From a virus, in the IMG/VR virus record IMGVR_UViG_3300035152_000011: a stretch of 64,000 bases of DNA; one strand, given 5' to 3'. Below the pieces are notes generated by a model. The model saw nothing but the letters and a program-made list of their open reading frames with translations. It ran no database searches and was not told the origin of the DNA. This document shows, piece by piece, positions 2,800 to 59,490 of this stretch (its first letter is position 1; each line of letters starts with the position of its first letter). The position numbers and the translations under genes are program-made.

Positions 2800-2815
2800 G
2801 ATCGCGTCTGCGATC
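2800..2815. promoter_or_regulatory. operator-like IR GATCGCGTCTGCGATC
   Basis: Member of the GATCG-N6-CGATC family; just downstream of TGATAGAGT and upstream of gene 2827. Confidence 0.5.
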
Positions 2816-2826
2816 AAGGATGACAG

Positions 2827-3537
2827 GTGGCTACGCAGCTCAAAAACATCATCGCGCACAGCAACGTCGCGGCGGGCGCGTTCTCGACGTTGCCACACCA
2901 GCTGAACCTAGATGGTCTGGGCCTGGTGCCGGATTCGGTCCAGCTCAGTAACGGCGAATTCGCATTCATCTCCGCTGACGACACGGAGATCACCGTTCGG
3001 AATAACGGTGTTGCCGTTGGAAGTTGCGACGTACTTGCTGAGCACTGGCACACCATGGAACGAACCTTCGGGCCGGAGAGCGTTACTGCGCTCACCCCGC
3101 AGCCGTTTGTTCCAGCTGGTACTAGCGGAGGCGCAGGTGGCGACACCGACCGGTATGCTCCACCCGAGAAGTGGTATCAAGCCAACGTGCCTGCTGCCCA
3201 AGCAAACGTGCCACTGAACGCGCTACTCAGTGTCAACTTCGATGACATCAAGATGATCCGCGATGGAAGCGTCGTAGGTCTTTCCACGAGGTTCAACGAA
3301 GCCGTCACCGATCCCAACGCAGGGTCGGCCGTCATCACAGTTACGATCAACGGCATTGCGGGGACCTTGGCTGTCTCACACAGCGCAGGTACCAATCCTA
3401 CTGGTGGTGAGGCGATACAAGCGGCCGGCGTCGATACCTTCGTCGCTGGCGATCTCATCGGAATCGAAATCACAACATTGGGCACGTTCGCTCCGACAAC
3501 AGCGGAGGTCGAAGCGTGGCTCGATTTTCAGTTCTAG
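2827..3537 (+). CDS. tail-fibre/receptor-binding-like protein, mosaic paralog 1
   Basis: GTG start. C-terminal about 120 aa paralogous to the C-terminus of ORF 3547..4167 (KW.Q.NV.A.Q.NV...SHS.GTNP.GG...GTFAPTT). Structural role is an inference. Confidence 0.5.
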   Translation: MATQLKNIIAHSNVAAGAFSTLPHQLNLDGLGLVPDSVQLSNGEFAFISADDTEITVRNNGVAVGSCDVLAEHWHTMERTFGPESVTALTPQPFVPAGTSGGAGGDTDRYAPPEKWYQANVPAAQANVPLNALLSVNFDDIKMIRDGSVVGLSTRFNEAVTDPNAGSAVITVTINGIAGTLAVSHSAGTNPTGGEAIQAAGVDTFVAGDLIGIEITTLGTFAPTTAEVEAWLDFQF

Positions 3538-3546
3538 GAGTAGCAG

Positions 3547-4167
3547 ATGAGCACAGCACGTAGAGGCGGCGTCAACAACATCATCCTTCTGAGCGGAAGC
3601 ACTGGCAATGACCCCGAGGTGCTTGCAGGCACCGCTGACCCCAGCGCGGCGTCCGGTGTTGCAGCGAAAGAGGGTTCGATCTACCTACGGTACGGAGCGG
3701 GCGCGGGGCAAATCTGGTTCAAGACGGCCGCAGCCGACACGGGTTGGACGCAGAGCGACCCGACTGTCGTCACGACCATCCGTGAGATCCCCAGCGAGAA
3801 GTGGGTCCAGAACAACGTCGCGGCCAGTCAGTCCAACGTCGATCTGAGTGCGCTCGTCTCGACGAGTTTCGACACCTTCAAGGCGATCCGAGACGGCAGC
3901 ATCGTGGGGCTCTCAACGGCGCTGACCGAGGCCATCACTGACGTGACCGCCGACAGTCTCATCGTCGCGGTCACAGTCAACGGCGCGACCGGCACGCTCC
4001 AGATCAGTCACAGTAGCGGTACAAACCCCTCGGGCGGTCAGGCAACGCAAGCGACAGGCATCGACACGTTCTCGGCTGGTGACGAGCTGGGCGTCGAGCT
4101 GACCACGCTCGGCACGTTCGCGCCGACGACAACGGATCTCGAAGCGGCAATCGAGCTTCAGTTCTAG
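3547..4167 (+). CDS. tail-fibre/receptor-binding-like protein, mosaic paralog 2
   Basis: N-terminal module (GNDPEVLAGTADPS...EGSIYL) shared with ORF 4193..5176; C-terminal module shared with ORF 2827..3537. Confidence 0.5.
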   Translation: MSTARRGGVNNIILLSGSTGNDPEVLAGTADPSAASGVAAKEGSIYLRYGAGAGQIWFKTAAADTGWTQSDPTVVTTIREIPSEKWVQNNVAASQSNVDLSALVSTSFDTFKAIRDGSIVGLSTALTEAITDVTADSLIVAVTVNGATGTLQISHSSGTNPSGGQATQATGIDTFSAGDELGVELTTLGTFAPTTTDLEAAIELQF

Positions 4168-4192
4168 TGCGATGATCGAGTAGAGTCGGCTC

Positions 4193-5176
4193 ATGGCTGA
4201 AGGCAGACGCGGCGGCGCAAACTCGTACAGGGTCATTTCAGGTGGCGGAAATGATCCGCTTGTGCTCGCAGGCACAGCCGATCCGTCGTCGGGTGGCGGT
4301 GTCGCTGCGCCCGAGGGCAGCATCTACCTGTTGAATTCGACTGGCGCGGGCAAGAACTACTTCAAAGCCGGTGCAGCGAACACAGCATGGACCGAAGTAC
4401 CGTCGCTTGGCACCGGGCCGCTCTCGGGTGTCGAGTCAAATCTGTGGGCACCCCCGTCGTCACCGAGCAGCGAAGACGACGAATTCACGTCGGACACGCT
4501 CTCGACTGGCTGGACGACACAAGGTGATACGTTCGACGATACGACGCCGCCTGCAATCGGAGCCAATTTCAACTCGGGCAACCTTCGGTACAGCTTCTCG
4601 CAGCGGAATTCATGGTTGCGGATGCAGGCCGTTGCGGATAGCACGTACAACTACATCTTCAAGCGATTCTCTGGTTTCGAGTCGGCACTGCCGGACGGAA
4701 CCTATTGGACGCGTTTGTCACAGCAAGTGTGGTCTTCGGACAGCAGTCTCTATCCTGGTGATTGTGCCCTCGCGCTCATAATGGGGTACAGCGCGACTGG
4801 AGCATCGATCAACACCAGCGTCGATGGAATCGAGTTTTCTTCAAACGCCATAACTAGCGTCAACGGAATCTACACGTCGGTTGTCCACAGGGTAGCGGGG
4901 ACGCCGACGAGTCAGGACTTGAACGATCTCAGCGGCTACATTCCGCATGCGTACCTGGCAATCATCAAGGATGGGGACTATTTTCTGATCTACGCGAAGC
5001 CCGAAGAAGGAGCTTGGGTTTTCGTGGACGCAACTTCTCACGGTGCTGGAGCCAATAACCTAAACGCTGTTGGCTTCTTCATCAGGAACACGTACTATCA
5101 GGCTGGCGGCGTCAAGGGCAACGGCATCGTCGAGGTCGATTTCTTCCGCTATCGATCTGATGGCCAACTTCCGTAG
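4193..5176 (+). CDS. tail-fibre/receptor-binding-like protein, mosaic paralog 3 with distinct distal domain
   Basis: Shares the N-terminal GNDPLVLAGTADPS...EGSIYL module with paralog 2; unique Ser/Thr/Gly/Asn-rich C-terminal domain. Confidence 0.5.
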   Translation: MAEGRRGGANSYRVISGGGNDPLVLAGTADPSSGGGVAAPEGSIYLLNSTGAGKNYFKAGAANTAWTEVPSLGTGPLSGVESNLWAPPSSPSSEDDEFTSDTLSTGWTTQGDTFDDTTPPAIGANFNSGNLRYSFSQRNSWLRMQAVADSTYNYIFKRFSGFESALPDGTYWTRLSQQVWSSDSSLYPGDCALALIMGYSATGASINTSVDGIEFSSNAITSVNGIYTSVVHRVAGTPTSQDLNDLSGYIPHAYLAIIKDGDYFLIYAKPEEGAWVFVDATSHGAGANNLNAVGFFIRNTYYQAGGVKGNGIVEVDFFRYRSDGQLP

Positions 5177-5196
5177 CGACGCCGGCTTTGTGACAA

Positions 5197-5580
5197 ATGG
5201 CGCGCTACGCTGGCATCTTTCTGGTCCGTGATGACGGCGCTATTCTGCTCGCTAGACGCTCTCAACACGTCTCGGAGCCAGGCTGGTGGTCGATCCCTGG
5301 TGGCGCGGCAAGACTCGGAGAGCGGCCCATAGCAGCCGCCTTGCGCGAGTTTGGTGAAGAGATGGGCAGCGTCCCACCACTCCAGCTCGTGAGCGCACAC
5401 CCGGTTCGGATTCCGAAGGGCGTATTCACAACCGTCCTGGCTACCATACCGACCAATGTCGGTACGAATTGGCAGCCGCGGCTCAATTGGGAGCACGACA
5501 ACTGGGGATGGTTCCACGTCGGGCAACTTCCCCGTCCACTGCATCCAGGCGTCAGCCTGTTCGTCCGCGGAGAGAACTAA
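5197..5580 (+). CDS. NUDIX hydrolase
   Basis: Nudix box GGAARLGERPIAAALREFGEEMG matches GX5EX7REUXEEXGU. Confidence 0.75.
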   Translation: MARYAGIFLVRDDGAILLARRSQHVSEPGWWSIPGGAARLGERPIAAALREFGEEMGSVPPLQLVSAHPVRIPKGVFTTVLATIPTNVGTNWQPRLNWEHDNWGWFHVGQLPRPLHPGVSLFVRGEN

Positions 5581-5612: not shown

Positions 5613-5628
5613 GATCGTAGCTGCGATC
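5613..5628. promoter_or_regulatory. operator-like IR GATCGTAGCTGCGATC
   Basis: Followed by GGTAGACT, GGCAGC and ATG 5647. Confidence 0.5.
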
Positions 5629-6474: not shown

Positions 6475-6490
6475 GATCGCGGATGCGATC
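6475..6490. promoter_or_regulatory. operator-like IR GATCGCGGATGCGATC
   Basis: Upstream of TAGGGT and gene 6547. Confidence 0.45.
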
Positions 6491-6546: not shown

Positions 6547-6765
6547 ATGGAGACGATCTCAACCTATTGCGAATGTAGCTGCCACGACGGAGTCGATCAC
6601 GGACCTGACCATCAGTGCTTTCCGGTCTGCGCGCCGTGCGCTTTCTGTCGAATGCCCGTGCGGGTCATCTTCCTGAAAGAACATCAGGACCAGTGTCCGG
6701 CCCGATTCGCACTCTCGCCCGTCGAGCAGCGAGTCGTGTTGCGGCGTGCCGCCGCAGCTCTATAG
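6547..6765 (+). CDS. small Cys-rich protein
   Basis: GGGGGG RBS-like; 11 Cys/His in 72 aa; overlaps antisense ORF 6665..6886 (ambiguous). Confidence 0.35.
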   Translation: METISTYCECSCHDGVDHGPDHQCFPVCAPCAFCRMPVRVIFLKEHQDQCPARFALSPVEQRVVLRRAAAAL

Positions 6766-9769: not shown

Positions 9770-9881
9770 GGTTCCTTCCGTCCCCTCGGGGACCGCGTTC
9801 AGAAGTAAGACGCCTACGGGGGCGTCGGTATTCACAAGATCGCTGCTGGGATCGATTTTTTATTCAAATGATTTCAACAGT

Positions 9882-11959: not shown

Positions 11960-12127
11960 TCCTTATGTTCGGCTTCGATGCGCTTCTCGACAGCGCTCTT
12001 TTTCATCCGCTGACAGTGCGTCCCAGCGTTGTTGGATTCTTGCTTTCTCCGCCGAGGGCGTACAGGCGAAGCATTTGTCTCCGAGGATGATCGCCTGACG
12101 CTCGCCACACTTTACGCATTTCTTCAT
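11960..12127 (-). CDS. small Zn-ribbon protein (55 aa)
   Basis: MKKCVKCGERQ...CFAC; ATG overlaps the upstream TGA (ATGA); under 60 aa so absent from the track. Confidence 0.4.
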
Positions 12128-12537
12128 GAAGCGGTTGCTGCGTTGTCGCGCATCTGTTTCATAGCGGGGACGATTGCATCGGGCGACTGACCGGGCGCCA
12201 CGACGCAGATGAAATTCGGAAACTCGTTGATGTCGTCGATCTGACCTGCCGGGGTCGAGACGAGGTGCCGTACCATCTGTTCGGCGCGGCCGTCGGGGTG
12301 CTGGAGAAGCACCATTGCCAGCGCGATGATCGGGAACACGATCACACCGCCTTCATTGTCGGGGTCGTCATAGGCGGCGACCCATCCCGAAAACATCGGG
12401 ATGATGTTCTGGATGATGTACTGACCGGTCAGCACCGTCTGTTGCTGTGGCGGTGCGTCAGCCGACTGTTCAGCGGGCTGCTCGGCCGTATCAGAGGGCT
12501 TCTCTTCAGCGTCTTTGCCTAGATCGAACATGTCCAT
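12124..12537 (-). CDS. hypothetical protein
   Basis: 137-aa acidic N-terminus, hydrophobic core. Confidence 0.45.
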   Translation of the reverse strand: MDMFDLGKDAEEKPSDTAEQPAEQSADAPPQQQTVLTGQYIIQNIIPMFSGWVAAYDDPDNEGGVIVFPIIALAMVLLQHPDGRAEQMVRHLVSTPAGQIDDINEFPNFICVVAPGQSPDAIVPAMKQMRDNAATAS

Positions 12538-12542: not shown

Positions 12543-12875
12543 CTATGTATCAGAAAGGTGTGACAATGTGCGGTATTCCACGGGCTGTCCGAGCGCTTCA
12601 GCGTGCTCGATGCCCTTCTGCATGCCTGGAGCGATGCCGCGGTCGGTGTAAACCACCGTCGCTTCTGCGGCCTGCCGCCAGGCAAACCCGGCTTCGATCC
12701 CGTGACGCCGCTCCGCCGGATCGTCATCATCGAGCACGCCTGGCTGGGTGTAGATCGCGTGTGAAGCAAACGGTGCCTCCCCGCGACTAAGACTGTCCCG
12801 AAGGGCGGCTCGCAAGTAGGTGAGGTTCTCTTCGACGTCGCCTGCGTAAGGGCTTTCGATGATCACGCGTCGCAT
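12543..12875 (-). CDS. hypothetical protein
   Basis: 110 aa; VIIESPYAG N-terminus. Confidence 0.45.
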   Translation of the reverse strand: MRRVIIESPYAGDVEENLTYLRAALRDSLSRGEAPFASHAIYTQPGVLDDDDPAERRHGIEAGFAWRQAAEATVVYTDRGIAPGMQKGIEHAEALGQPVEYRTLSHLSDT

Positions 12876-13465
12876 TAGGTCTGGTTCCTCCTATCCCGTT
12901 GTCGTTGTTTCGCGTCCTGAAGTCGTTTGTAGCTGCGCAGGTCACGCTTGTCGTAGACCAGTTTGATCCGCGCCCATCCGTCATGGCCGAGCAGCTCTGC
13001 TGCCTTCGGCGTGAGATCGGCTATACCACGCCAGCGTCCAATAGGGCAGTTTTCGGCCGGACAGAGATCCTTTCCTGGTCGGTCGTAAGCATGCCGCTTC
13101 ACGTACCAGAACTGCTTACCTGTCTCGGGGTGCCTAGACACCGCTCCCCACGGACCCGCGTCGATGACCACAGCCCGCACCGACTTTCCAGTTTCCATGT
13201 TCGTGAGGTGCACGACGGCACCACAATCCAAGTCGCGGTGCGCGATGCCAATGTCGTTCTCGGGATCGACTGGACGTTTGCGGCCGTGCTCGTCTCGCAG
13301 GCACCGTGTCGGACCGCTGCCGTACCGGTCACCCTCGTAGCCGAAGATGGTCGAGATGCCACGGCTCTCGCGTACGAATTTCGGGTCGTGCGGTCCGAGC
13401 TGAACCAGCTCAAGCGCCGCTGCCGGACCGCAGAATGTCGTGAAGAATGCAAGCCAAAATAGCAT
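12875..13465 (-). CDS. secreted RlpA-like double-psi beta-barrel protein (putative cell-wall binding/lytic)
   Basis: Signal peptide MLFWLAFFTTFCGPAAA. DPBB motif IAHRDLDCGAVVHLTNMETGKSVRAVVIDAGPW resembles RlpA/expansin AH..LPFGT.V.VTN..NG.SV.V.INDRGP. Confidence 0.55.
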   Translation of the reverse strand: MLFWLAFFTTFCGPAAALELVQLGPHDPKFVRESRGISTIFGYEGDRYGSGPTRCLRDEHGRKRPVDPENDIGIAHRDLDCGAVVHLTNMETGKSVRAVVIDAGPWGAVSRHPETGKQFWYVKRHAYDRPGKDLCPAENCPIGRWRGIADLTPKAAELLGHDGWARIKLVYDKRDLRSYKRLQDAKQRQRDRRNQT

Positions 13466-13568
13466 GGCGCCCCCTGAGACGGCGTGATCGCAGCCGCGAT
13501 CAAACGCGGAGTAGGTGAGTAGCAATACCGTTCTTTGGGCGCCTTTGTCTAGTCAGTAGTCAGATTGC

Positions 13569-14171
13569 TCACTTACTGGCTGCCCGCTTTGGCGTCTCGC
13601 CGATACGGCTGCTGCAATGCGGACAGTCTGTTATCAGCCCTAGCAGGGATCTAACTTCGTTCTCCAGGGTCCCGATTCGTGCCTCGGCTACTCGGAGCTT
13701 CGCCTGGAGCACACCCACCATCGACGTACTCTGGCCGGGGATGATCTCGTTGAGAACACGCACAAAGACAGTTCGCGAGACGACCGGCGCCGTAGCCGTG
13801 ACTTCACCTTCGATGCGGCGGAACACTTCGTCCCACGTCTGCTGATCGTCGGTGCGGTTGAGCATACGCAGCAACGGAGCGCGCCCGTAGCGTTCCATCT
13901 TGTCGCCGCCAAAGGCGTCGAGCACACGAAGTGTGTCAAGCACCGCTCCGGGATCGAGGTGTAGACGCTCCTTCACCACCTGCCTAAACGACATCTTGGA
14001 AATACGCAAATACAGAGCGTTGCTCGCAAAGCGTTTGCGATCCTTCCAGACAGAGCCGTCTCGGATTTCTTGGAGAAGCTCAGCTTGCGCGCGTTCAGCC
14101 TTCTGCGCGGTCCGCGCGAGCTTCTTCACACGCCGCTCTATCGTCTCCCACATCAGCGTTTTCTTCGACAT
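13569..14171 (-). CDS. hypothetical coiled-coil protein
   Basis: Charged helical N-terminus; start ambiguous; overlaps the 3-prime end of ORF 14095..14697. Confidence 0.4.
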   Translation of the reverse strand: MSKKTLMWETIERRVKKLARTAQKAERAQAELLQEIRDGSVWKDRKRFASNALYLRISKMSFRQVVKERLHLDPGAVLDTLRVLDAFGGDKMERYGRAPLLRMLNRTDDQQTWDEVFRRIEGEVTATAPVVSRTVFVRVLNEIIPGQSTSMVGVLQAKLRVAEARIGTLENEVRSLLGLITDCPHCSSRIGETPKRAASK

Positions 14172-27051: not shown

Positions 27052-27306
27052 GTGACTGGGATCAAGACAGTCGCAGTATCGATTGAAGAGATCGAGGAAG
27101 GGATCGAAATCTGTCGGGACGAGTCGTGCCCGATCATCGAGGTCCATGCGGCACACCCTGTTGTCCCTTCGATGCGCGGGCGGGCGCCGAAGAGCTGTCC
27201 GTTGTGCTTTCGACCAATTCCCCCCGGCCAGGGCCCACGCTGTCTGGTCTGTGGATGGGACCGCCGCAATTCCGTCTACGTGAAGAAAGGGAAGTCGAAT
27301 GCGTGA
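27052..27306 (+). CDS. small Zn-binding protein
   Basis: IEICRDESCPIIEVHAAHP motif shared with ORF 28816..29418; CPLC...CLVC. Confidence 0.45.
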   Translation: MTGIKTVAVSIEEIEEGIEICRDESCPIIEVHAAHPVVPSMRGRAPKSCPLCFRPIPPGQGPRCLVCGWDRRNSVYVKKGKSNA

Positions 27307-35209: not shown

Positions 35210-37315
35210 TTGGCGCCCGAACTGGATGTTGGGATTGGCGCCAGCACTACTGCTCCTGTTCCTTGCCCTGCAATGGATTCTCTAATGGACTACATCGACA
35301 AGACCTTCTCGCTCGGCGGCTACCTTGCGCAGCACCACTCCGGCTACGAGGTGCGCGAGGGCCAAGTCGCGCTTGCACGGCAAGTCCACACCGCGATGAA
35401 GAAAGAACGGACGCTGCTCGCTGAGGCTCCGTGTGGGTCGGGCAAAGGATTCGCCTACGCGGTTCCAGCTATCGAGCAAGCGCAGAAGAAACGGCGCACG
35501 GTCATCGTCACGGCCAACATCGCATTGCAGGCCCAGCTCATCGAGAAAGACTTGCCGACGTTGGCCAAGGCGCTGCCCGTGCCGTTTCACGCAGCGCTGC
35601 TCAAAGGGCGCAACAACTTTCTGTGCAACCACAAGCTCTTCCAGATAGACACCATGCGCCGGGCGATGGGCGAGATGGCGTTTCGTAAGTCGTATGGGCT
35701 CTCTCGGACCCAAGAGGATCTACTTCTTGCGGTCCTTGCGTGGGCTGATACGACCCATACCGGTGATCGCGAAGAGCCGCAGTTTCCCGCCGACGCGGCC
35801 GGCTCCGATGGTATTTGGCATCTCGTCTCTGTTGGTCAGGATGACTGCATCGGTCGCGGTTGTGCAGCCGCCCGTGAGAGGACGTGCTGGGCCAACAACC
35901 ACCGCCGCGAGGCGTTGAAGGCCAATATCATTGTCACCAACTACCACTTGCTCTTCGCGCACTGCAAGCTCAACGCGCTGAACCCCACGAATGGCATCCT
36001 GCCGCGCTTCGAGAACTTGGTCATGGACGAAGCGCACGAGGCGGCACGCATCGCACGAGACTTCTTCGGCGCGCGCATCAGTTACCCACGGTTCAAACGG
36101 ATCGCCGAGATGATGAAGCACGAGCTGAAGCTCGACGGCAAGGCCATCACTGATACAGGTCGCTGGCTCATGCAGGCTGTGGGCGCCTGCGCCGAGACCA
36201 TCGAATACCGCGCGAAGGGTCGCCTCGACAAGGCCGACATCATCGACGTTGAGGATACCGTCAAGCTCCTCCGAGAGGCCGTGAACGCGGCGTCCAAAGT
36301 GGCCGACGAAATCTGCCCAAGTAGCGAATGCTACGCGGGGCTGAGCGACGAAGCCCAGGAGACGTACCACAAAGCGAGGATGGTGGAGCGCAACGCAGAA
36401 ATCCTTGCGCATGACGTCAATGAAGCGTTCCACACGCCGCACGAAGACAGGGTCTACTGGATTCAGATCGAGAAGAGACGTCCGATCCGTGTCGAAGCGC
36501 GGCACCTCGACGTGGCCGACGTGTTCCGCACGCGGGTACTTCCCCAAGCGCGTTCGGTTACGTTGACCTCGGCGACGCTCACCGCGATGGGTACCTTCGA
36601 TCTGGTGCGCAGCGAGTTGGGCATTGGGAAGGCGATGGAATTCGTAGCCGAGTCCCCATTCGATTTCCGCGCAAGCGCACGACTGGTCGTCGCCGACAAG
36701 AAGCGCCTCGCGCCGGCCAGCCAAAATCGCGAACAGTACAACCATGCGGTACTGCCCTTGTATAAGGAGATCCTCGACCTCTGGCCTGGCCGAACGCTCT
36801 GCCTCTTCACGGCGATCACCGACCTGGAGTGGATGCACGAGCGCCTCGACGGCTATGGCGGCCGCACGGTATACAAGCAAGGCGAGTTTTCGCGTCCGCT
36901 CCTCGCGCAGTACTTCCGCGACGACGCGGAGTCAGTGCTTATGGGCGTGGATAGCTTCTGGACCGGTGTTGATGTACCAGGGCCGAAGGCGATCATCATT
37001 CACAAGCTGCCGTTCCCGTACCAGGACGTCGTGCTCAGGGCTATCGCAGCGCGCATGTCCAAGGACGAGTGGTTCAAGGGCCGTTACTACCCGTGGATGA
37101 TCACCAAGCTCCGACAGGGTGTTGGCCGACTGCTGCGCCGAACAGGTGACTACGGACTCATCATCTGCATGGACCGACGCATCACCGACAAGTGGGCCTA
37201 CGCCGACGCTATTCGGCGCAGCCTGCCGTTCCAATCCTTCATCCGTACTGACGAGCTGTACAAGCTCAAGCCCTTCCTCCAGTCCAATGCTGATGACCAA
37301 GCCATCGCTGTCTGA
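35210..37315 (+). CDS. DinG/Rad3 (XPD)-family ATP-dependent helicase
   Basis: Walker A AEAPCGSGKGFAY, DEAH box VMDEAHEAA, about 700 aa with helicase C-terminal motifs. Confidence 0.8.
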   Translation: MAPELDVGIGASTTAPVPCPAMDSLMDYIDKTFSLGGYLAQHHSGYEVREGQVALARQVHTAMKKERTLLAEAPCGSGKGFAYAVPAIEQAQKKRRTVIVTANIALQAQLIEKDLPTLAKALPVPFHAALLKGRNNFLCNHKLFQIDTMRRAMGEMAFRKSYGLSRTQEDLLLAVLAWADTTHTGDREEPQFPADAAGSDGIWHLVSVGQDDCIGRGCAAARERTCWANNHRREALKANIIVTNYHLLFAHCKLNALNPTNGILPRFENLVMDEAHEAARIARDFFGARISYPRFKRIAEMMKHELKLDGKAITDTGRWLMQAVGACAETIEYRAKGRLDKADIIDVEDTVKLLREAVNAASKVADEICPSSECYAGLSDEAQETYHKARMVERNAEILAHDVNEAFHTPHEDRVYWIQIEKRRPIRVEARHLDVADVFRTRVLPQARSVTLTSATLTAMGTFDLVRSELGIGKAMEFVAESPFDFRASARLVVADKKRLAPASQNREQYNHAVLPLYKEILDLWPGRTLCLFTAITDLEWMHERLDGYGGRTVYKQGEFSRPLLAQYFRDDAESVLMGVDSFWTGVDVPGPKAIIIHKLPFPYQDVVLRAIAARMSKDEWFKGRYYPWMITKLRQGVGRLLRRTGDYGLIICMDRRITDKWAYADAIRRSLPFQSFIRTDELYKLKPFLQSNADDQAIAV

Positions 37316-38192
37316 GCTTCCCGAGCGCGCTCACGCGTCGCCCATCGTCAGGTGGGTCGGCGGGAAGCGCTGGCTCGTCCCCGTCGTGTCCAACATCGCC
37401 TACGACTATCTGAGCGATACAAGGGGACGCTACATCGAGCCGTTCCTCGGAGGCGGCGCGGTCGCGGCCGACCTGGGACTACCTGACATGCTCCTGGCCG
37501 ACCTCTGTGAACCGCTCATCAACGCCTTCCAGCAGGTTCGCCGCAGCCCAGACTCCGTGCTCTGGTCACTTAGGAACTACCGACGACGCGGCGTGGACGC
37601 AGACACCTACTACAAGATCCGGGCGGAGTGTCCTCGCGGGAAGGTCCAGCGCGCAGCTTGGTTTTTCTACATGAACGCGCTCTGCTTCAATGGCGTCTAC
37701 CGTGAAAACTCGAAGGGCGAGTACAACGTCCCCTACGGTGTTCGCAAACCAGGAAAGAAGCTCCCCGGCAAGACGCCGATGGTCAGCCATTCCTTCCTCA
37801 ACAAGAAGAGGCTCACGCCATTCGTCGATGCCGTCCGCGGCGCAGAGCTGACTGCGAGCGATTTCCGGCCGATCATCAAACGCGCTACCGACGGTGACTT
37901 CGTGTTCGTGGACTCACCTTACTTCGGGGTCTACTCGAACTACCTCAAGGAAGGCTTCGGCGTCGCGGACCACGTTGACCTTGCGCGTGAGCTACGCGCG
38001 GCCGCAGAGCGCGGCGCTGCTTTCATCGCAACCAACAACGACGTGCCCGAGGTGCGTCGTCTCTACCGTTGGGCGCATATCACACGTACGGGCGAGTTTC
38101 GACGCGTAAATCGTGACGCGAAAAAGCGTGGGAAAGTCGCCTGTCTGCTGATCGCGTCGGGCCGCGACCTCGTTGGTTCCGCCGCAATCTGA
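37287..38192 (+). CDS. Dam-like N6-adenine DNA methyltransferase (D12 class)
   Basis: IVRWVGGKRWL N-terminal motif, catalytic DSPYF (DPPY-type). Confidence 0.7.
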   Translation: MLMTKPSLSELPERAHASPIVRWVGGKRWLVPVVSNIAYDYLSDTRGRYIEPFLGGGAVAADLGLPDMLLADLCEPLINAFQQVRRSPDSVLWSLRNYRRRGVDADTYYKIRAECPRGKVQRAAWFFYMNALCFNGVYRENSKGEYNVPYGVRKPGKKLPGKTPMVSHSFLNKKRLTPFVDAVRGAELTASDFRPIIKRATDGDFVFVDSPYFGVYSNYLKEGFGVADHVDLARELRAAAERGAAFIATNNDVPEVRRLYRWAHITRTGEFRRVNRDAKKRGKVACLLIASGRDLVGSAAI

Positions 38193-38206
38193 TCGGATCT
38201 GCGATC
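38191..38206. promoter_or_regulatory. operator-like IR GATCGGATCTGCGATC
   Basis: Followed by TTGACG and ATG 38239. Confidence 0.45.
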
Positions 38207-38866: not shown

Positions 38867-38909
38867 ATGTCTGGGTGATCGTAGCCGCGATCCAGTGTAG
38901 TATCGACGC

Positions 38910-42330: not shown

Positions 42331-42346
42331 GATCGCAGCTGCGATC
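42331..42346. promoter_or_regulatory. operator-like IR GATCGCAGCTGCGATC (perfect palindrome)
   Basis: Between the tRNA 3-prime end and the GATAGACT/ATG of minus-strand gene 41729..42313. Confidence 0.5.
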
Positions 42347-45865: not shown

Positions 45866-45880
45866 TCATCGCAGCAGCTT

Positions 45881-54796: not shown

Positions 54797-55246
54797 CTAT
54801 CGTTGTCTCCGGCCGCTGAGGTCGATCTTCCGTGGGCACGCTTCACGCATAGCGTACCGGCCGCATTCCCACTCACCGGACGGTCCCATCCCTTCCTCGG
54901 GTGGGCGCAGCCGCGTTGCAGGCTTGCCCGACACGCAGCTCGCGCGGCCTTTCTGGGCCTGCTTACGCCAGAAACTCTCAGACGCTTCGGTGCGCAAATG
55001 CCCCGAGGCGAGTCGAACGCGGTCTTCGCAGGCGAGCTGGAGCGCGCGTTCGTACATCTTGGTGCCGATACCGCAGCGACGGTGCTTCTTGACGATGACG
55101 TACTCGACGACGAGGAAGGGCTTGCCGTGGCGATCAGGCGCCAGTCCCATGAAGCCAGCCTCGTCGCCGTTCGTGAACGCCTTGATCTTGTAACCCTCTG
55201 TCGTCGGTTCGACCCGGAGCTTGACTGGACCGCAGCTTGGATTCAT
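54797..55246 (-). CDS. GNAT-like paralog 2
   Basis: HRRCGIGTKMYERALQLACEDRVRLASGHLRTEASESFWRKQ...REACPRKIDLSGRRQR. Confidence 0.5.
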   Translation of the reverse strand: MNPSCGPVKLRVEPTTEGYKIKAFTNGDEAGFMGLAPDRHGKPFLVVEYVIVKKHRRCGIGTKMYERALQLACEDRVRLASGHLRTEASESFWRKQAQKGRASCVSGKPATRLRPPEEGMGPSGEWECGRYAMREACPRKIDLSGRRQR

Positions 55247-55722
55247 CGTCGCCCCCGTCCGCTCAGGTCGATCTTGCGTGGACAGGCCTCGTGCATCGCG
55301 TATCTGTAGCAAGGCCAGTTCCCAACCGGTTTGAACATGAGGGGTGATTCACTGCTTAGCCGCGTTCCCGGTATTGCACGAGTCAGACAGTGCGCACGGC
55401 CTTTGCGCGTCTGCTTCCGCCAGAAGCCCTCCGATGCCTCAGTGCGCTTCGAGTCCGAAGCTAGAAGCGCGCGCTCAGCACAAGCGATGTTGTACAGATG
55501 CTCGTAGAGCCGGGTGCCAACACGACACCGTTTGATGTGCGCGCCCATTGCGCTCACGACAGCGAGCTTTTCGGGCCCGTAGTCGGTGATGAGCATGCCG
55601 GCGCCGCCCACCTTCTTGCCTTCCATGTAGGCGTCTACGTCGATCAGGACTGCATGGGGGCCGCTTTGGTAGCGGTCAGTCTTGAAGGAGATCGTCCCGC
55701 ACGTTATCGGTTTGGTCGCCAT
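55243..55722 (-). CDS. GNAT-like paralog 3
   Basis: KRCRVGTRLYEHLYNIACAERALLASDSKRTEASEGFWRKQ...HEACPRKIDLSGRGRR. Confidence 0.5.
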   Translation of the reverse strand: MATKPITCGTISFKTDRYQSGPHAVLIDVDAYMEGKKVGGAGMLITDYGPEKLAVVSAMGAHIKRCRVGTRLYEHLYNIACAERALLASDSKRTEASEGFWRKQTRKGRAHCLTRAIPGTRLSSESPLMFKPVGNWPCYRYAMHEACPRKIDLSGRGRR

Positions 55723-56129
55723 TCACTCAAGTCCATTTTGCGCGGACAGGCTTCGCGCATCACGTAGCGACGACACGGCCACTGCCCTTCGGGCAAGCGC
55801 CCTCCGACACCGCGGATGCACTTCGCGCGCTTCTTTTCGAGCTGTTTCTTCCAGAACCCCTCAGACATGTCAGACCGCAACTCGTCTGAGGCGATTCGGA
55901 GGCCCTGCTCGCAGGCGATCTTCATGGCGCGTTCGTAGAGCTTCGTCCCAATACCGCAGCGTCGGTACTCAGGCTTGACAGCGGCATCTGTGACAGCGAG
56001 TACGAAGTCGCCTTGCTCGTAGACCTCCGTGAGGTTCATTGCCCCAGCGGGATCTCCATTCATGTAGGCGCGGATGTACGTATCTTCGTCGTCCCCGAGT
56101 ACGCTGATCCTCAACTGGCCACACTTCAT
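55704..56129 (-). CDS. GNAT-like paralog 4
   Basis: YRRCGIGTKLYERAMKIACEQGLRIASDELRSDMSEGFWKKQ...REACPRKMDLSEWR. Confidence 0.5.
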   Translation of the reverse strand: MKCGQLRISVLGDDEDTYIRAYMNGDPAGAMNLTEVYEQGDFVLAVTDAAVKPEYRRCGIGTKLYERAMKIACEQGLRIASDELRSDMSEGFWKKQLEKKRAKCIRGVGGRLPEGQWPCRRYVMREACPRKMDLSEWRPNR

Positions 56130-56605
56130 CTGCGTCTCCGGCCGCTGAGATCCATCTTGCGAGGACAGGCCTCACGCATCACGTAGCGGTAGCAGGGCCA
56201 CTTCCCGACCGTCGTGAACCCGGTCGGGCTGTGGTGTAGTCGCCCCGCGGGAACGTCGCTCAGGTAACAGACTGCACGGCCCTTCTTGGCCTGCTTCGAC
56301 CAGAAGCCCTCTGACGCTTCGGTCCGCTGCGAATCCGATGCCAGTGGTAGTCTGTTCTCGCATGCTAGCGCGAGCGCCTTCTCGTAGAGCTTGGTACCTA
56401 TGCCACAGCGCCGATGCGCGATGACCTTCGCGTACTCGACTGCCATGATCGGCTCGCCATCGTCCAGCTCCGTCGTCGTCAAGTCCATCGCGCCGACGAA
56501 CTTGCCGTTCATGATGGCCGTCAGCTTGTAGTCGCGGCCGCCTTCGTACTCATCGTCGATGTAGTGCTGAATCGTGACCGTCCCGCATTTCGGGTACGTG
56601 GCCAC
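56126..56605 (-). CDS. GNAT-like paralog 5
   Basis: HRRCGIGTKLYEKALALACENRLPLASDSQRTEASEGFWSKQ...REACPRKMDLSGRRRR. Confidence 0.5.
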   Translation of the reverse strand: MATYPKCGTVTIQHYIDDEYEGGRDYKLTAIMNGKFVGAMDLTTTELDDGEPIMAVEYAKVIAHRRCGIGTKLYEKALALACENRLPLASDSQRTEASEGFWSKQAKKGRAVCYLSDVPAGRLHHSPTGFTTVGKWPCYRYVMREACPRKMDLSGRRRR

Positions 56606-57076: not shown

Positions 57077-57448
57077 TCATGGTAGGGAATCGACCATCTC
57101 TTCTTCGCCGCCGTACTCGAAGAGTCGCGCGACACCGTAACCGGCAGCCAGGCGTAGCCATTCCTCTTCGGTGCGTGGTAGCCGTTGCCCGCGTACGCGT
57201 TGTGCCTCAGTCAGTTCATCCACATCGACCCAGGTCCGCGTTTGGAGGAAATGTTCTTCGGGACCGCCAATGTACTGGTACTCAGTGACGTCAAACCCCG
57301 AGCCTGACGTTTCGACCTCGGTAGCGTTCTCGCCTTCCCGCCCGCCGGGCCCATACCAAACCGCGTAGCCTGTGCCTTCGGAGTAGACATCAGGCCTGCG
57401 GAACGGTCGGCCATCCCATGATTGAACACTCATCTTGTTACCAGCCAC
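57077..57448 (-). CDS. hypothetical protein
   Basis: 123-aa Gly/Glu-rich ORF. Confidence 0.4.
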   Translation of the reverse strand: MAGNKMSVQSWDGRPFRRPDVYSEGTGYAVWYGPGGREGENATEVETSGSGFDVTEYQYIGGPEEHFLQTRTWVDVDELTEAQRVRGQRLPRTEEEWLRLAAGYGVARLFEYGGEEEMVDSLP

Positions 57449-58460
57449 GGCGTTGTAGCCGTCCAGGCGCTGCCGCTGGATTGCGGGCGCATTTGGCCTT
57501 CCTGATGAACTTGCGGGCGTGGAAGCATCGACCTTCCCAGGCCGCCTTGATGGCCTCGGTCAACGATTCTGTGCTGCCGCAGTAGAATGTGGCGTCCTTG
57601 CGGAGCTGCTGCGCGAGCGCGTCGGCCATGTCGTACTCGCGTGGACATCCAGGAGCTTGTGGATGACGATGCTGGAAGGCTTCGACCTGCTCCTCCCACG
57701 GAGAAAGCTCGTCCTCGGGAATGTCCTCCCAATCGTCGTAATCGTCTTCCCAGGCACCGACGGCGCTTCCCTTCCGACCGCGGACCGCCAGCGCGGTCGC
57801 CGCGCCAGCTCCGACTAGGAGTGTCGCCCCGCCGGCCCACCAGGCCCATCTGGGAATCTTGGATAGCCAGCTGATCTGGTAGTCCGCGGCCGGCGCGGCG
57901 CGTCCTTCCTCGATCTCTTCACCAGCTGCTTGCGCGGCCATCTTCTCCTGCAAGCACTTGATGGCCTGCTGGGTCGAGACGAGCAGTTCGTGCGGCCGTC
58001 CGACGTAATTGCGAGCCGGCTCAGTATCGATGAGATAGCTGATCGGGACGTCCTTGGCCAGCGCGTCCTCGAAGTAGGCAATGTCCGTGAAGATGTAGGG
58101 CGATGAACCGGAGCTGGCAACACCCTCCTTGCGCCCAGGAAGGATGTAGTGATTGTGGTTGTAGATGCAGCCGCCCTTACCGGCTGCCTCGATGATCGTG
58201 TTCCACCCGCCTGCGTGGACGAAGGCGACTGGGTACATGTAGCTCCATCCGTACCCCGACGATCCAGTCTCGTCATCCACGAGCACGTATTTGTAGCGTG
58301 TGAATGGCGCTGGTTTGCCGGAAGGATCGACCACCGGTTCCTTTAGCAGTCCCGTGAGGAACGACTCGAAGGCCTTGAGTGTGTCGATGTCGGCTTGGGT
58401 GACAACCGCGTTGGGATCAGTGAAGGCAAGGCCACAGCCACACGACGAGATAGTCAGCAT
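57438..58460 (-). CDS. hypothetical lipoprotein-like / membrane protein
   Basis: N-terminal MLTISSCGCG; internal TM WAWWAGGATLLVGAGAATALAV; acidic C-terminus. ATG 7 nt after GTAGCGT and operator IR. Confidence 0.5.
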   Translation of the reverse strand: MLTISSCGCGLAFTDPNAVVTQADIDTLKAFESFLTGLLKEPVVDPSGKPAPFTRYKYVLVDDETGSSGYGWSYMYPVAFVHAGGWNTIIEAAGKGGCIYNHNHYILPGRKEGVASSGSSPYIFTDIAYFEDALAKDVPISYLIDTEPARNYVGRPHELLVSTQQAIKCLQEKMAAQAAGEEIEEGRAAPAADYQISWLSKIPRWAWWAGGATLLVGAGAATALAVRGRKGSAVGAWEDDYDDWEDIPEDELSPWEEQVEAFQHRHPQAPGCPREYDMADALAQQLRKDATFYCGSTESLTEAIKAAWEGRCFHARKFIRKAKCARNPAAAPGRLQRRGW

Positions 58461-58479: not shown

Positions 58480-58495
58480 GATCGTAGATGCGATC
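58480..58495. promoter_or_regulatory. operator-like IR GATCGTAGATGCGATC
   Basis: Upstream (minus strand) of GTAGCGT and ATG 58460. Confidence 0.5.
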
Positions 58496-58496
58496 A

Positions 58497-58706
58497 CTAG
58501 GTTTGCATGAGCACAACGCTGGCTGCGGCGATCAACGCGCCCGTTCCCAGTGCTGCGACGAGCGGCTGCGCTCCAAGCCTCTGGGCTAAAAGGCCAACGC
58601 CTACCCCTGCGCCAAGGCTAACAAGCACAGCTGAAACTTCAGCTCGGCGGCGCTCTTCTGGCGTGATCCCAAAGTCGGTAGACAGTCCGCGCCGCCAATA
58701 CTGCAT
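58497..58706 (-). CDS. small membrane protein
   Basis: Trimmed to MQYWRRGL...; two TM helices (holin-like topology, function unproven). Confidence 0.4.
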   Translation of the reverse strand: MQYWRRGLSTDFGITPEERRRAEVSAVLVSLGAGVGVGLLAQRLGAQPLVAALGTGALIAAASVVLMQT

Positions 58707-58708
58707 GG

Positions 58709-59119
58709 CTACTCCGTCTGCGCTGCTTTGCGTTTGCGGACGAAGTAGATGGTCACGCCGATGCCCGCCGTGAGGATGATGCCGATGACAGCAGGCCAGA
58801 ACCACTTGCGCTGCGTGACGCCCTTCTTCTCGACGTCGGCTTTCTTCAGCGGACATCCGGTGGAGAGGATGAGCTGGCCGTTCGGCGCGATGACGAGGCC
58901 AAACGTCTGCTTGCCGCCGCCGACCTCTTCCTGCTCCAGCTTCGATTTGGCCGCAGCTTCCTCATCGTAGCTGTTGATGGCAATGAACAACTCGTTGTCC
59001 TTGACGACCTGTTGACGGACCTCGTACTTGCCGGTTCCCTGCGGCGGGATGCCCATCGTCGTGATGAAGTCTTGAATGACGTCAGTCGGACATTCGTTGT
59101 TGCCTGCGGTAGCTAGCAT
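58709..59119 (-). CDS. C-terminally membrane-anchored protein
   Basis: 136 aa; C-terminal WFWPAVIGIILTAGIGVTIYFV helix. Confidence 0.45.
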   Translation of the reverse strand: MLATAGNNECPTDVIQDFITTMGIPPQGTGKYEVRQQVVKDNELFIAINSYDEEAAAKSKLEQEEVGGGKQTFGLVIAPNGQLILSTGCPLKKADVEKKGVTQRKWFWPAVIGIILTAGIGVTIYFVRKRKAAQTE

Positions 59120-59128
59120 CGTCCTCTC

Positions 59129-59458
59129 CTATTCGGGCTTCTTCGGCGGCTCGCCCGTTTCGGGCAGCTCAGGCGCGGCTAGCGTTGGGGCCGGAGCTGG
59201 AGCCACGATTGGTTTGGGCTTCTTCGGCGCGCGGGGCACGCGAGTCTTCTGTCGAACGCCGTTGATGTAGCAGACGCCCGTGGTCTCACCGAGCGTCCCG
59301 AATCCACGTTGGCCCTTCTTGATACACACTTTGCGGCCGGTGCCTTCGGGCTTCGAGAGCATCCCGGCCATCTCCTCGACGATCTTCTTGGACCCCTTCG
59401 GAGTGGCAGTGACGCCTGTCTCGTAGACGCCCCAATACTGGTAGCTCTTCTTTGCCAT
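59129..59458 (-). CDS. hypothetical protein with Pro/Lys-rich tail
   Basis: ATG 6 nt after GATAGGGT and operator IR 59475-59490. Confidence 0.45.
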   Translation of the reverse strand: MAKKSYQYWGVYETGVTATPKGSKKIVEEMAGMLSKPEGTGRKVCIKKGQRGFGTLGETTGVCYINGVRQKTRVPRAPKKPKPIVAPAPAPTLAAPELPETGEPPKKPE

Positions 59459-59474
59459 GGCCCTACCCTATCAT

Positions 59475-59490
59475 GATCGTGCATGCGATC
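59475..59490. promoter_or_regulatory. operator-like IR GATCGTGCATGCGATC
   Basis: Upstream (minus strand) of GATAGGGT and ATG 59458. Confidence 0.5.

What the first reader, a model, noticed from the sequence alone, without database searches (positions are those of the whole stretch)
2800..59490. Recurrent palindromic operator GATCG-N6-CGATC at eight intergenic sites
The 16-bp inverted repeat occurs at 2800, 5613, 6475, 38191, 42331, 50379, 58480 and 59475. It is always intergenic and sits 2-45 nt upstream of a gene start, usually adjacent to a TAG(A/G)(C/G)T -10-like hexamer. About 0.1 chance occurrences of this 10-specified-base motif are expected in 64 kb on both strands. It looks like the binding site of a dimeric phage regulator, with candidates being the HTH proteins at 14095-14697 or 28816-29418. 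Each site has two GATC sequences and the element encodes a Dam-like methyltransferase, so binding could be methylation-sensitive.
Basis: seen in the sequence. Interest (0 to 1): 0.7.

Follow-up and report, generated by a model that had tools for sequence, protein, structure and literature searches.

The report
Promoter-linked palindromic operator in huge phages
A 16-base palindrome carrying two GATC sites sits on the core promoters of about ten operons in this uncultivated huge phage and its relatives, and most likely binds an unidentified dimeric regulator that switches a set of late-type genes.

Summary
The motif is real. GATCG-N6-CGATC occurs 13 times in the window, not 8, against 0.24 expected by chance. 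Ten copies lie in the 10.5% of the DNA that is non-coding. Three copies are inside genes and look like coding by-products. A one-mismatch member sits at 445.

The consensus is GATCGC-N4-GCGATC, a 6-4-6 dyad. It is welded to host-type extended -10 promoters (TGnTAnnnT), most of which start leaderless mRNAs exactly 6 nt downstream.
- Six sites end 1-3 nt before the TG position, so the operator spans about -33 to -18.
- Two sites lie just upstream of a -35 hexamer.
- Two sites overlap the -10 or the transcription start.

The same composite architecture recurs about 35 times in roughly ten IMG/VR contigs of 65-221 kb. These belong to one clade of uncultivated huge phages that share a PolA-UDG fusion polymerase. 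It is close to absent from the rest of the 2.9 million viral contigs.

Best reading: an operator for a clade-conserved dimeric regulator, probably a repressor, controlling a late-like regulon.

The phage does encode a Dam orthologue, and its stop codon overlaps one site. Methylation sensitivity remains untested. This is a new member of a known kind.

The parts
445..460 (+). Degenerate operator copy GATCTCAGCTACGATC (1 mismatch). Class A: followed by a-TGATAGGCT-gagtgc-ATG(477).
462..479 (+). Extended -10 TGATAGGCT, a 6-nt gap, then ATG of a leaderless gene at 477-740 (lipoprotein-like, 87 aa).
2790..2798 (+). Extended -10 TGATAGAGT, ending 1 nt before the operator at 2800.
2800..2815 (+). Operator GATCGCGTCTGCGATC. 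Class C: it lies about -5 to +11 of the 2790 promoter and is followed by AAGGA-N6-GTG(2827). The gene is homologous to L180, whose product matches the collagen-like minor tail family. In orthologous promoters of L178 and L180 the operator lies upstream of the -10 instead.
5613..5628 (+). Operator GATCGTAGCTGCGATC. Class A: cag-TGGTAGACT-ggcagc-ATG(5647), leaderless.
6475..6490 (+). Operator GATCGCGGATGCGATC. Class B: 4 nt upstream of TTGCGC-N17-TAGGGT, which reads into a Cys-rich 72-aa ORF at 6547-6765. A TAGTGT hexamer also abuts it on the minus strand.
13486..13501 (-). Operator GATCGCAGCCGCGATC, 20 nt upstream of ATG 13465. The gene 12875-13465 encodes a protein with a hydrophobic, signal-peptide-like N-terminus and no family match. 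The promoter geometry is unclear.
12328..12343 (.). In-gene copy inside 12124-12537. Probably a coding by-product.
25071..25086 (.). In-gene copy in the SNF2 helicase, encoding I-A-x-A-I. It is kept only in close relatives and lost in L129-L153, so it is a coding by-product.
25748..25763 (.). In-gene copy near the 5' end of the PD-(D/E)XK nuclease gene, encoding I-D-D-T-I. A GATC-N8-GATC frame is retained in L121, L123, L125 and L127. Function uncertain.
37287..38192 (+). D12-class Dam-like N6-adenine methyltransferase. Its TGA stop (38190-38192) overlaps the first GATC of the operator at 38191.
38191..38206 (+). Operator GATCGGATCTGCGATC. Class B: 7 nt upstream of TTGACG(38214)-N15-TGaCATGTT, the promoter of small basic protein genes (38275-38481 and 38670-38813). 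The orthologous site is present in L124, L125, L127 and L129. In L133-L141 it is paired with a second copy 30 bp downstream that overlaps the -10.
38877..38892 (+). Operator GATCGTAGCCGCGATC. Class A: cagtg-TAGTAT-cgacgc-ATG(38910), leaderless, heading the operon 38910-40728. The orthologue L129:17540 has the same layout.
42331..42346 (-). Perfect 16-bp palindrome GATCGCAGCTGCGATC. Class A on the minus strand: cagga-TAGACT-ggctgc-ATG(42313). It lies 8 nt from the 3' end of tRNA-His (42355-42429).
50355..50409 (+). Promoter TTGACA(50355)-N15-TGa-GATCGT. The -10 hexamer is the first 6 nt of the operator at 50379-50394 (GATCGTAGCTGCGATC, class C). It is followed by AAGGAGG and ATG(50407) of a 68-aa basic protein.
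58480..58495 (-). Operator (plus strand GATCGTAGATGCGATC). Class A on the minus strand: cta-TGGTAGCGT-agaagcc-ATG(58460), heading gene 57438-58460, which encodes a membrane protein.
59475..59490 (-). Operator (plus strand GATCGTGCATGCGATC). Class A on the minus strand: a-TGATAGGGT-agggcc-ATG(59458), heading the basic-protein gene 59129-59458. The orthologue L160:3070 has the same layout and a conserved N-terminus, M(A/P)KKSYQYWG.
9838..9853 (.). Possible degenerate copy GATCGCTGCTGGGATC, intergenic. It resembles the second operator (GATCGCTCGTGGGATC) seen in relatives.
27048..27063 (.). Possible degenerate copy GATCGTGACTGGGATC, between the nuclease gene and an 84-aa zinc-ribbon ORF. It is conserved in L123.

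Best explanation
The motif is an operator. It is a 16-bp dyad with consensus GATCGC-N4-GCGATC (GATCGCAGCTGCGATC in this genome). A sequence-specific dimeric DNA-binding protein most likely binds it, with the half-site centres about 10 bp apart, one helical turn.

The operator sits on the core region of host-RNA-polymerase promoters of the extended -10 type (TGnTAnnnT, no -35 needed). Most of these promoters fire leaderless mRNAs, with the start codon exactly 6-7 nt after the hexamer.

Occupancy of about -33 to -18, or of the -10/+1 region, or of the segment abutting a -35 hexamer, should block polymerase. So the protein most likely acts as a repressor. It would hold a subset of at least ten operons silent until a defined stage of infection. 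Those operons encode tail-fibre-like proteins, small very basic Cys-pair proteins, and lipoprotein or membrane proteins.

Each half-site contains a GATC, and the phage carries its own Dam. Methylation state, and hence replication, may therefore modulate binding.

Shown here: the motif, its statistics, its geometry relative to promoters and start codons, its conservation across a phage clade, and the Dam gene.

Inferred only: protein binding, the sign of regulation, the timing, and the methylation effect. The regulator itself is unidentified. It may be encoded outside this 64-kb window or by the host.
For: (1) There are 13 exact copies against 0.24 expected. Ten of 13 lie in the 10.5% non-coding DNA, P = 3.6e-8. 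GATC-to-GATC spacing shows a unique spike at 12 bp.

(2) Six copies share the layout motif-N4..6-TAnnnT-N6..7-ATG.

(3) TGnTAnnnT is the general promoter type of this phage. Sixteen of its 35 occurrences fall in intergenic DNA. Promoters of equal quality exist without the motif at 8259, 17051, 49562 and 60409. So the motif is a regulatory add-on, not a requirement for promoter recognition.

(4) The operator position relative to the -10 varies.
- It is upstream of the -10 at six sites.
- It overlaps the -10 or +1 at 2800 and 50379.
- It is upstream of a -35 at 6475 and 38191.
- The orthologous tail-fibre-like gene has the operator downstream of the -10 in the window but upstream of it in L178 and L180.
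- Relatives have two copies 30 bp apart bracketing the TTGACG promoter downstream of Dam.
This pattern is typical of repressor operators.

(5) The arms are invariant across 87 sites in related phages, with position 6 = C in 95%. The inner 4 nt are complementary in only 40-45% of sites. That points to sequence recognition of a 6-4-6 dyad rather than selection for a hairpin.

(6) The composite pattern GATCGC-N4-GCGATC-N1..3-TGnTAnnnT was scanned over 2.9 million IMG/VR contigs. It gave 45 stretches. About 35 matches fall in roughly ten contigs, which are the PolA-UDG relatives (9 in a 221-kb contig, 10 in a 196-kb contig). Most are followed by ATG or GTG 5-9 nt after the hexamer.

(7) A Dam orthologue is encoded next to a conserved operator pair.
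Against: No binding protein has been identified. Both HTH candidates fail the conservation test.

In relatives the dominant spacing between motif and the TG is very tight at 1-2 nt (although that sample was fetched with a 1-3 nt pattern). A fixed position is more typical of an activator box or promoter element than of a repressor site.

The functional class of the regulated genes rests on weak annotation: two PHROG tail-fibre hits plus sequence features.

Some sites are not conserved between relatives. The 58480 site has no counterpart in L160, and the 42331 orthologue in L124 lacks the motif.

The in-gene copies are slightly more frequent than expected, 3 against 0.82.
Confidence: 0.5

Rival explanations
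1. Activator box or promoter-specificity element. The dyad replaces the -35 element. It would be bound by a phage-encoded activator or sigma-appropriating factor that recruits host polymerase to one temporal (late) promoter class, as the MotA box does in T4 middle promoters.
For: The dominant spacing is tight, with the motif ending 1-3 nt before the TG of the extended -10 in the window and in about 35 promoters of relatives. No -35 hexamer is present at class A promoters. The genes driven look late-like.
Against: Motif-less extended -10 promoters of the same quality exist, so the core promoter should work without the dyad. A dimer centred at about -25 leaves no room for polymerase contacts. 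Copies that overlap the -10 or +1 (2800, 50379, and the second copy in relatives) cannot activate from there. The element is symmetric, whereas known sigma and MotA boxes are asymmetric.
Confidence: 0.25
2. Direct Dam or hemimethylation sensor with no dedicated sequence-specific regulator. Paired GATCs 12 bp apart in the core promoter would change polymerase affinity with methylation state, or would be sequestered by a SeqA-like protein after replication.
For: GATC...GATC is the most conserved part of orthologous sites, for example GATCACAGCTACGATC in L124 and L125. In some promoters the -10 hexamer itself is GATCGT or GATCTT, which would place the methylatable adenine at -11. The phage Dam gene is adjacent. 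A 12-bp spacing is one that SeqA accepts (own knowledge).
Against: Positions 5-6 and 11-12 (GC/GC) are as invariant as the GATC itself in 87 sites, which Dam or SeqA recognition does not require. The window has 463 GATCs, and only the 12-bp pairs with GC extensions are enriched. More distant relatives that still carry Dam lack the spike at 12 bp.
Confidence: 0.1
3. RNA-level element. The palindrome would fold as a hairpin in read-through transcripts and act as a 3' stabiliser, processing site or terminator between operons.
For: Hairpins of -8 to -13 kcal/mol are predicted, with z-scores of -2 to -3. Many sites follow the stop codon of an upstream co-directional gene.
Against: None of the sites scans as terminator-like, and there is no U-tract on either strand. 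The arms never vary and show no compensatory changes, which indicates sequence constraint rather than structural constraint. The position is locked to the -10 element rather than to the upstream stop codon.
Confidence: 0.05
4. Mobile or selfish palindromic repeat (REP or MITE-like, possibly linked to the IS605-type TnpB in the window), or a chance consequence of GATC-rich composition.
For: A TnpB gene is present at 47917-49152. GATC is about twofold over-represented overall: 463 copies were counted, against roughly 224 expected from base composition by my own estimate.
Against: Orthologous positions are conserved across relatives down to about 54% PolA identity. The element is only 16 bp, with no flanking repeat unit and no clustering. 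None of 100 shuffles reached 13 copies.
Confidence: 0.02

Closest known systems
Conserved inverted repeats (CIRs) bound by the repressor of Streptomyces phage phiC31 (own knowledge; not retrievable in the paper library)
   Same: A short, highly conserved inverted repeat is present in more than ten copies across an actinophage genome. Copies are mostly intergenic and lie at or near promoters. A phage repressor binds them to control lytic genes.
   Different: The phiC31 sequence, length (17 bp) and promoter type are different. phiC31 is a 41-kb temperate phage with an identified repressor gene. Here no repressor is identified, the genomes are huge (65-243 kb contigs), and every half-site carries a GATC.
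17-bp palindromic repeat 5'-TGTTCGGNNNCCGAACA of Cluster O mycobacteriophages (PMC4351075)
   Same: It has invariant arms with a variable centre. There are dozens of copies per genome (34 in Corndog). Copies are partly intergenic and partly at gene 5' ends, and the binding factor is unknown.
   Different: The Cluster O repeats are not reported as locked to the -10 element. The SigA-like promoters there were predicted separately. There is no GATC and no Dam link, and the sequence is unrelated.
KorB operators (OB) of IncP plasmid RK2, and stoperators of Cluster A mycobacteriophages (own knowledge)
   Same: One regulator acts through about 12-30 copies of a single site spread over a replicon, with several positional classes relative to promoters.
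   Different: KorB is a ParB-family protein that can act at a distance, and stoperators are asymmetric 13-mers that block elongation. Here the sites are symmetric and almost always inside the core promoter. No ParB-like protein or immunity repressor was seen among the roughly 60 window proteins scanned.
Dam-controlled regulatory sites: phage Mu mom (OxyR), pap (Lrp), agn43 (OxyR), the IS10 pIN promoter (own knowledge)
   Same: GATC sites lie inside a regulator's footprint or inside the -10 hexamer, so adenine methylation and protein binding compete. Mu mom is a late phage gene.
   Different: Those are single loci in enterobacteria that use host Dam. Here it would be a regulon of ten or more promoters per genome with a phage-encoded Dam, and methylation sensitivity is untested.
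T4 middle promoters (MotA box plus a sigma-70 -10 element) (own knowledge)
   Same: A conserved box lies at a fixed short distance upstream of a good -10 or extended -10 element and takes the place of a -35 element. It marks one temporal promoter class.
   Different: The MotA box is asymmetric, is centred at -30, and activates. This dyad is symmetric, is centred near -25, and also occurs over the -10 and +1.

Membership tests
Multi-copy phage operator regulon (phiC31 CIR / Cluster O palindrome type) | Many copies of one short dyad, far above chance | tested here: met
   13 copies against 0.24 expected. 87 strict copies in 249 kb of clade loci.
Multi-copy phage operator regulon (phiC31 CIR / Cluster O palindrome type) | Preferential location in intergenic DNA at promoters | tested here: met
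   10 of 13 copies in the 10.5% non-coding DNA, P = 3.6e-8. Copies abut or overlap TGnTAnnnT elements.
Multi-copy phage operator regulon (phiC31 CIR / Cluster O palindrome type) | Conservation of sites at orthologous promoters in related phages | tested here: met
Multi-copy phage operator regulon (phiC31 CIR / Cluster O palindrome type) | A cognate phage-encoded DNA-binding protein that binds the dyad | tested here: inconclusive
   Two HTH proteins exist in the window. One is an ORFan. The other was not detected in the distant relatives that carry the motif. Binding itself cannot be tested with these tools.
Dam-methylation-dependent regulatory site (Mu mom / pap / agn43 type) | GATC inside the regulatory site | tested here: met
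   Two GATCs per site by definition. In 50379 and in the second copy of relatives, GATC forms part of the -10 hexamer.
Dam-methylation-dependent regulatory site (Mu mom / pap / agn43 type) | A GATC-specific adenine methyltransferase is available | tested here: met
   MethyltransfD12, E = 5.6e-31. The best solved homologues are DpnM, EcoDam and T4 Dam. Specificity is inferred by homology only.
Dam-methylation-dependent regulatory site (Mu mom / pap / agn43 type) | Binding or promoter activity changes with methylation state | not testable with these tools
   This needs EMSA or reporter assays with and without Dam, or methylation calls from long reads.
Intrinsic (Rho-independent) terminator | GC-rich hairpin followed by a U-tract | tested here: not met
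   No motif site is among the terminator-like hits. The flanks lack T-runs on both strands.
MerR-type spacer operator | Dyad between a recognisable -35 and -10 separated by a 19-20 bp spacer | tested here: not met
   The dyad is centred near -25, but no conserved -35 hexamer precedes class A sites.
REP / MITE-like mobile palindromes | Repeat unit that varies in presence and position and is not tied to promoter geometry | tested here: not met
   There is a fixed register with the -10 and conserved orthologous sites. Some gain and loss of sites between relatives does occur.
T4 MotA-box-type activator promoter | Box at a fixed distance upstream of the -10, replacing the -35 | tested here: inconclusive
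   Met for class A sites. Classes B and C, and the orthologue swap at gene 2827, contradict a strict register.

The most novel reading that the evidence does not exclude
The dyad is the sensor of a Dam-gated, replication-coupled late-gene switch shared by a whole clade of uncultivated huge phages. A regulator, or polymerase itself, would read the methylation state of two GATCs 12 bp apart in dozens of leaderless extended -10 promoters per genome. Phage Dam activity and genome replication would then set the timing of virion and lysis gene expression. This would be a regulon-scale version of the Mu mom / OxyR-Dam logic, with a phage-encoded methylase.
Probability: 0.2. Interest if true: 0.7.

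Novelty: new member of a known kind. Interest (0 to 1): 0.45.

Why it matters
It gives a ready-made regulatory code for a clade of uncultivated huge phages with 65-243 kb contigs from soil and groundwater metagenomes. For these phages nothing is known about gene expression.

The code has three parts: an extended -10 promoter, a leaderless start, and an optional 16-bp operator. With it, promoters, true start codons and a co-regulated (probably late) gene set can be read directly from sequence. Clade members can also be recognised by a DNA signature alone.

The paired GATC sites plus a phage Dam make a methylation- or replication-coupled timing mechanism testable. Suitable tests are methylation calls from long-read metagenomes or simple reporter constructs.

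Tried and rejected
- Megablast of 8 kb against cultured phages gave no match. tblastn of the polymerase gave at most about 30% identity, so there is no cultured relative.
- An exact-protein lookup of the polymerase failed because of a start-codon or insertion difference.
- A viral-contig scan with the MVP-like protein found nothing usable.
- A viral-contig scan with the bare 14-base motif was saturated by single random hits. The composite motif plus -10 pattern worked instead.
- A repeat lookup of P0002 did not return the 150-kb contig. That contig was reached via IMG/VR.
- The genome-contig scan gave no host clue, only 2 marginal MAG hits.
- The classical two-hexamer promoter scan does not see these promoters, because they lack a -35.
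- The regulator hunt was negative. Pfam, PHROGs and PDB searches of about 60 window proteins found only the two HTH proteins. Neither is conserved together with the motif.
- I tested whether the SNF2 in-gene copy is under DNA-level constraint. It is not, because it is lost in more distant orthologues.
- I tested whether a GATC-N8-GATC frame with different inner bases persists in distant relatives. It does not.
- L202 (91% relative) ends before the intergenic sites, so it gave no footprint.

Full report
OBSERVATION

The pattern GATCG-N6-CGATC occurs 13 times in the window. It occurs at the eight listed coordinates and also at 12328, 13486, 25071, 25748 and 38877. Dinucleotide-preserving shuffles give a mean of 0.24 and a maximum of 2. 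With one mismatch allowed, six further sites appear. One of them, 445 (GATCTCAGCTACGATC), has the full promoter context of the exact sites.

The window holds 463 GATCs. Their start-to-start distances show a single spike at 12 bp: 20 pairs, 12 of them intergenic, against 0-9 at other distances.

I used a gene map built from GC3 and ORF criteria, checked against called genes of relatives. On that map, 10 of the 13 exact copies lie in the 10.5% of the window that is non-coding (binomial P = 3.6e-8). The three in-gene copies compare with 0.82 expected when synonymous codons are shuffled (P about 0.04).

The in-gene copy in the SNF2 helicase encodes I-A-x-A-I. It is retained only in close relatives and lost in more distant orthologues, so it is a coding by-product.

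But the list was incomplete, and 'always intergenic' is true only of the listed subset.

WHAT THE WINDOW IS

The window is part of a large phage genome with no cultured relative. It encodes:
- a PolA polymerase fused to a uracil-DNA glycosylase domain
- an intein-containing ribonucleotide reductase
- SNF2 and XPD-like helicases
- a PD-(D/E)XK nuclease
- a major-vault-protein-like protein
- a TnpB/Cas12f-like protein
- a tRNA-His

Polymerase homologues lie on metagenomic contigs of up to 243 kb from groundwater and soil, and gene order is conserved.

ANATOMY

The half-site consensus in the window is GATCGCAG, and 42331 is the perfect 16-bp palindrome. Across 87 sites in related phages the arms GATCGC and GCGATC are essentially invariant, with position 6 = C in 95%. 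The central 4 nt vary and are self-complementary in only 40-45% of sites. The element is therefore a 6-4-6 dyad.

The promoters of this phage are of the extended -10 type, TGnTAnnnT. Sixteen of the 35 occurrences fall in intergenic DNA. Many are followed after exactly 6-7 nt by ATG or GTG, which is the geometry of leaderless mRNAs. Conserved N-termini in orthologues confirm those start codons, for example M(A/P)KKSYQYWG in the window and in L160.

The dyad occurs in three registers.
- Class A (445, 5613, 38877, 42331, 58480, 59475): the dyad ends 1-3 nt before the TG position, so it spans about -33 to -18.
- Class B (6475, 38191): it lies 4-7 nt upstream of a -35 hexamer, TTGCGC or TTGACG.
- Class C (2800, 50379): it overlaps the -10 or +1. 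At 50379 the -10 hexamer GATCGT is the first six bases of the dyad, preceded by TGa and by TTGACA 18 nt upstream. At 2800 the dyad starts 1 nt after TGATAGAGT.

Site 13486 lies 20 nt upstream of a start codon, and I could not define a promoter for it.

Several extended -10 promoters of equal quality carry no dyad: 8259, 17051, 49562 and 60409. The dyad therefore marks a subset of promoters.

COMPARATIVE EVIDENCE

Relatives fetched through the polymerase, at 54-82% identity, carry the same dyad at orthologous promoters.
- The site just downstream of the Dam gene is conserved in L124, L125, L127 and L129.
- In L133-L141 that site is paired with a second copy 30 bp downstream. The two copies bracket TTGACG, and the second overlaps the extended -10 TGgGATC(T/G)T.
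- The promoter of the 'VPHVFTLEG' membrane-protein gene reads taa-c-GATCGCGCACGCGATC-rTGgTAGGCT in five relatives.
- L129:17540 mirrors window site 38877.

I scanned all IMG/VR contigs for the composite GATCGC-N4-GCGATC-N1..3-TGnTAnnnT. It returned 45 stretches. About 35 matches lie in roughly ten contigs, which are exactly the polymerase relatives. There are 9 in the 221-kb contig, 10 in the 196-kb contig, 5 in the 91-kb contig and 4 in the 150-kb contig. The remainder are single hits, about the number I would expect by chance (my own rough estimate). Most clade hits are followed by a start codon 5-9 nt after the hexamer.

More distant relatives, at 47% polymerase identity or less, lack the 12-bp GATC spike. 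The system therefore defines a subclade.

MECHANISM

Four arguments favour a DNA-binding protein that represses.
1. The arms are invariant in sequence and show no compensatory changes.
2. The core promoters resemble the dyad-less ones, so they should work without the dyad.
3. A dimer on -33 to -18, on the -10/+1 region, or in tandem or paired copies would occlude polymerase. Examples of tandem or paired copies are L161, L171 and the promoters downstream of Dam.
4. The orthologous tail-fibre-like gene has the dyad downstream of the -10 in the window (2800) but upstream of it in L178 and L180. An activator could not tolerate that.

Against this, the class A register is very tight in relatives (a biased sample). 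That keeps an activator-box model alive.

The dyad-driven genes fall into several groups.
- Homologues of collagen-like tail-fibre proteins, with PHROG E-values of 1e-7 to 3e-9.
- Five small, extremely basic Cys-pair proteins.
- A lipoprotein-like protein.
- Membrane proteins.
- A protein with a signal-peptide-like N-terminus, encoded at 12875-13465.

Replication genes have no intergenic dyad. I therefore infer, weakly, that this is a late-like regulon.

DAM

The gene at 37287-38192 is a D12-class methyltransferase. Its closest solved homologues are the GATC enzymes DpnM, E. coli Dam and T4 Dam. Its stop codon overlaps the dyad at 38191. The gene is syntenic in the relatives that carry the motif. 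Methylation-sensitive control is therefore plausible, but nothing here tests it.

REGULATOR

- The tandem HTH_17 protein is unique to this genome.
- The 28816-29418 protein was found only in close relatives.

Scans of about 60 window proteins revealed no other candidate. The binder is unknown. It may be encoded outside the window or by the host.

RIVALS

- A terminator or RNA hairpin is unlikely. There is no U-tract, none of the sites scans as a terminator, and the constraint is on sequence rather than structure. Hairpins of -8 to -13 kcal/mol can nevertheless form.
- A mobile REP-like repeat is unlikely, given the fixed register and the orthologous conservation.
- A pure Dam or SeqA-type sensor does not explain the invariant GC next to each GATC.

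COMPARISON AND VERDICT

Functionally, the closest known systems are:
- the multi-copy operator systems of actinophages: the phiC31 CIRs, and the Cluster O 17-bp palindrome (PMC4351075)
- global plasmid regulons such as KorB
- Dam-competing regulator sites such as Mu mom, for the GATC aspect

No paper in the library contains this motif.

I classify it as a new member of a known kind. It is a real, clade-conserved operator regulon in uncultivated huge phages, with an untested but attractive link to phage Dam methylation.

Noticed in passing
window 47190-47838 (array) and 47917-49152 (+): A CRISPR-like array of a 29-nt repeat, GGCGTCCCCACGCGGGTGTGGAGTGCTGG, lies directly upstream of a 411-aa TnpB/Cas12f-like ORF (OrfB_IS605 and Cas12f1-like_TNB domains). 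It has 7 perfect copies, 2 near-perfect copies and 3 degenerate ones. A relative (L125) encodes a 657-aa Cas12f1-like_TNB protein.
   Followed up: partly
window 38275-38481, 38670-38813, 50407-50613, 50620-50952, 59129-59458: A family of small (47-110 aa), extremely basic Lys/Arg-rich proteins with conserved Cys pairs, for example GRCLKWSKGRTKCLKRAK and RWCIRWRKTKPKTC. All sit in operons driven by the dyad, and they are conserved in relatives. They may be DNA-condensing or virion-internal proteins. None has a Pfam hit.
   Followed up: partly
window 29415-33242 (+), insertion 29634-30443: The PolA-UDG fusion polymerase carries an in-frame insertion of about 270 aa that is absent from the 93%-identical relative L123 and from L121, L124 and L125. 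The insertion has no Pfam domain, so it may be a degenerate intein or a mobile insertion. Other relatives carry LAGLIDADG or intein insertions at other places in the same gene.
   Followed up: partly
window 17143-19779 (-): An 878-aa protein with major vault protein shoulder and repeat domains (MVP_shoulder, E = 1e-28). It is also present in the close relative L202. This is unusual for a phage.
   Followed up: no
window 60781-63999 (-): A ribonucleotide reductase large subunit interrupted by an intein with a LAGLIDADG homing endonuclease domain. The ORF runs off the end of the window.
   Followed up: no
window 54262-56605 (-) and 40725-41207 (-): Five tandem paralogues, plus one distant copy, of a gene of about 160 aa. 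Two of the copies, scanned against Pfam, show GNAT acetyltransferase domains. Separately, three paralogues at 44537-46277 share a conserved upstream block, CCCCAATCTATCACAGGAGAGATCA-ATG.
   Followed up: no
window 49581-49589 and 52331-52339: A second small palindrome, GTGTCACAC, lies 5-10 nt upstream of two dyad-less extended -10 promoters (TGGTAGAAT on the minus strand at 49562, and TGATAACGT at 52345). With only two copies it is not significant on its own (15% of shuffles reach two), but it may be a second operator type.
   Followed up: partly
window-wide, e.g. 8259(-), 17051(-), 49562(-), 60409(-): General expression signature of the phage. Extended -10 promoters (TGnTAnnnT) are strongly enriched in intergenic DNA, with 16 of 35 there. 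Start codons lie exactly 6-7 nt downstream, which gives leaderless mRNAs. This suggests a host with abundant leaderless translation, such as Actinobacteria, but the host was not determined.
   Followed up: partly
window 27052-27306 (+) and 28816-29418 (+): An 84-aa zinc-ribbon ORF and the HTH protein share a paralogous segment, ICRD(E/D)xCP..EVHAAHP. The 84-aa ORF is conserved in ten related loci but was not called as a gene in L123.
   Followed up: no
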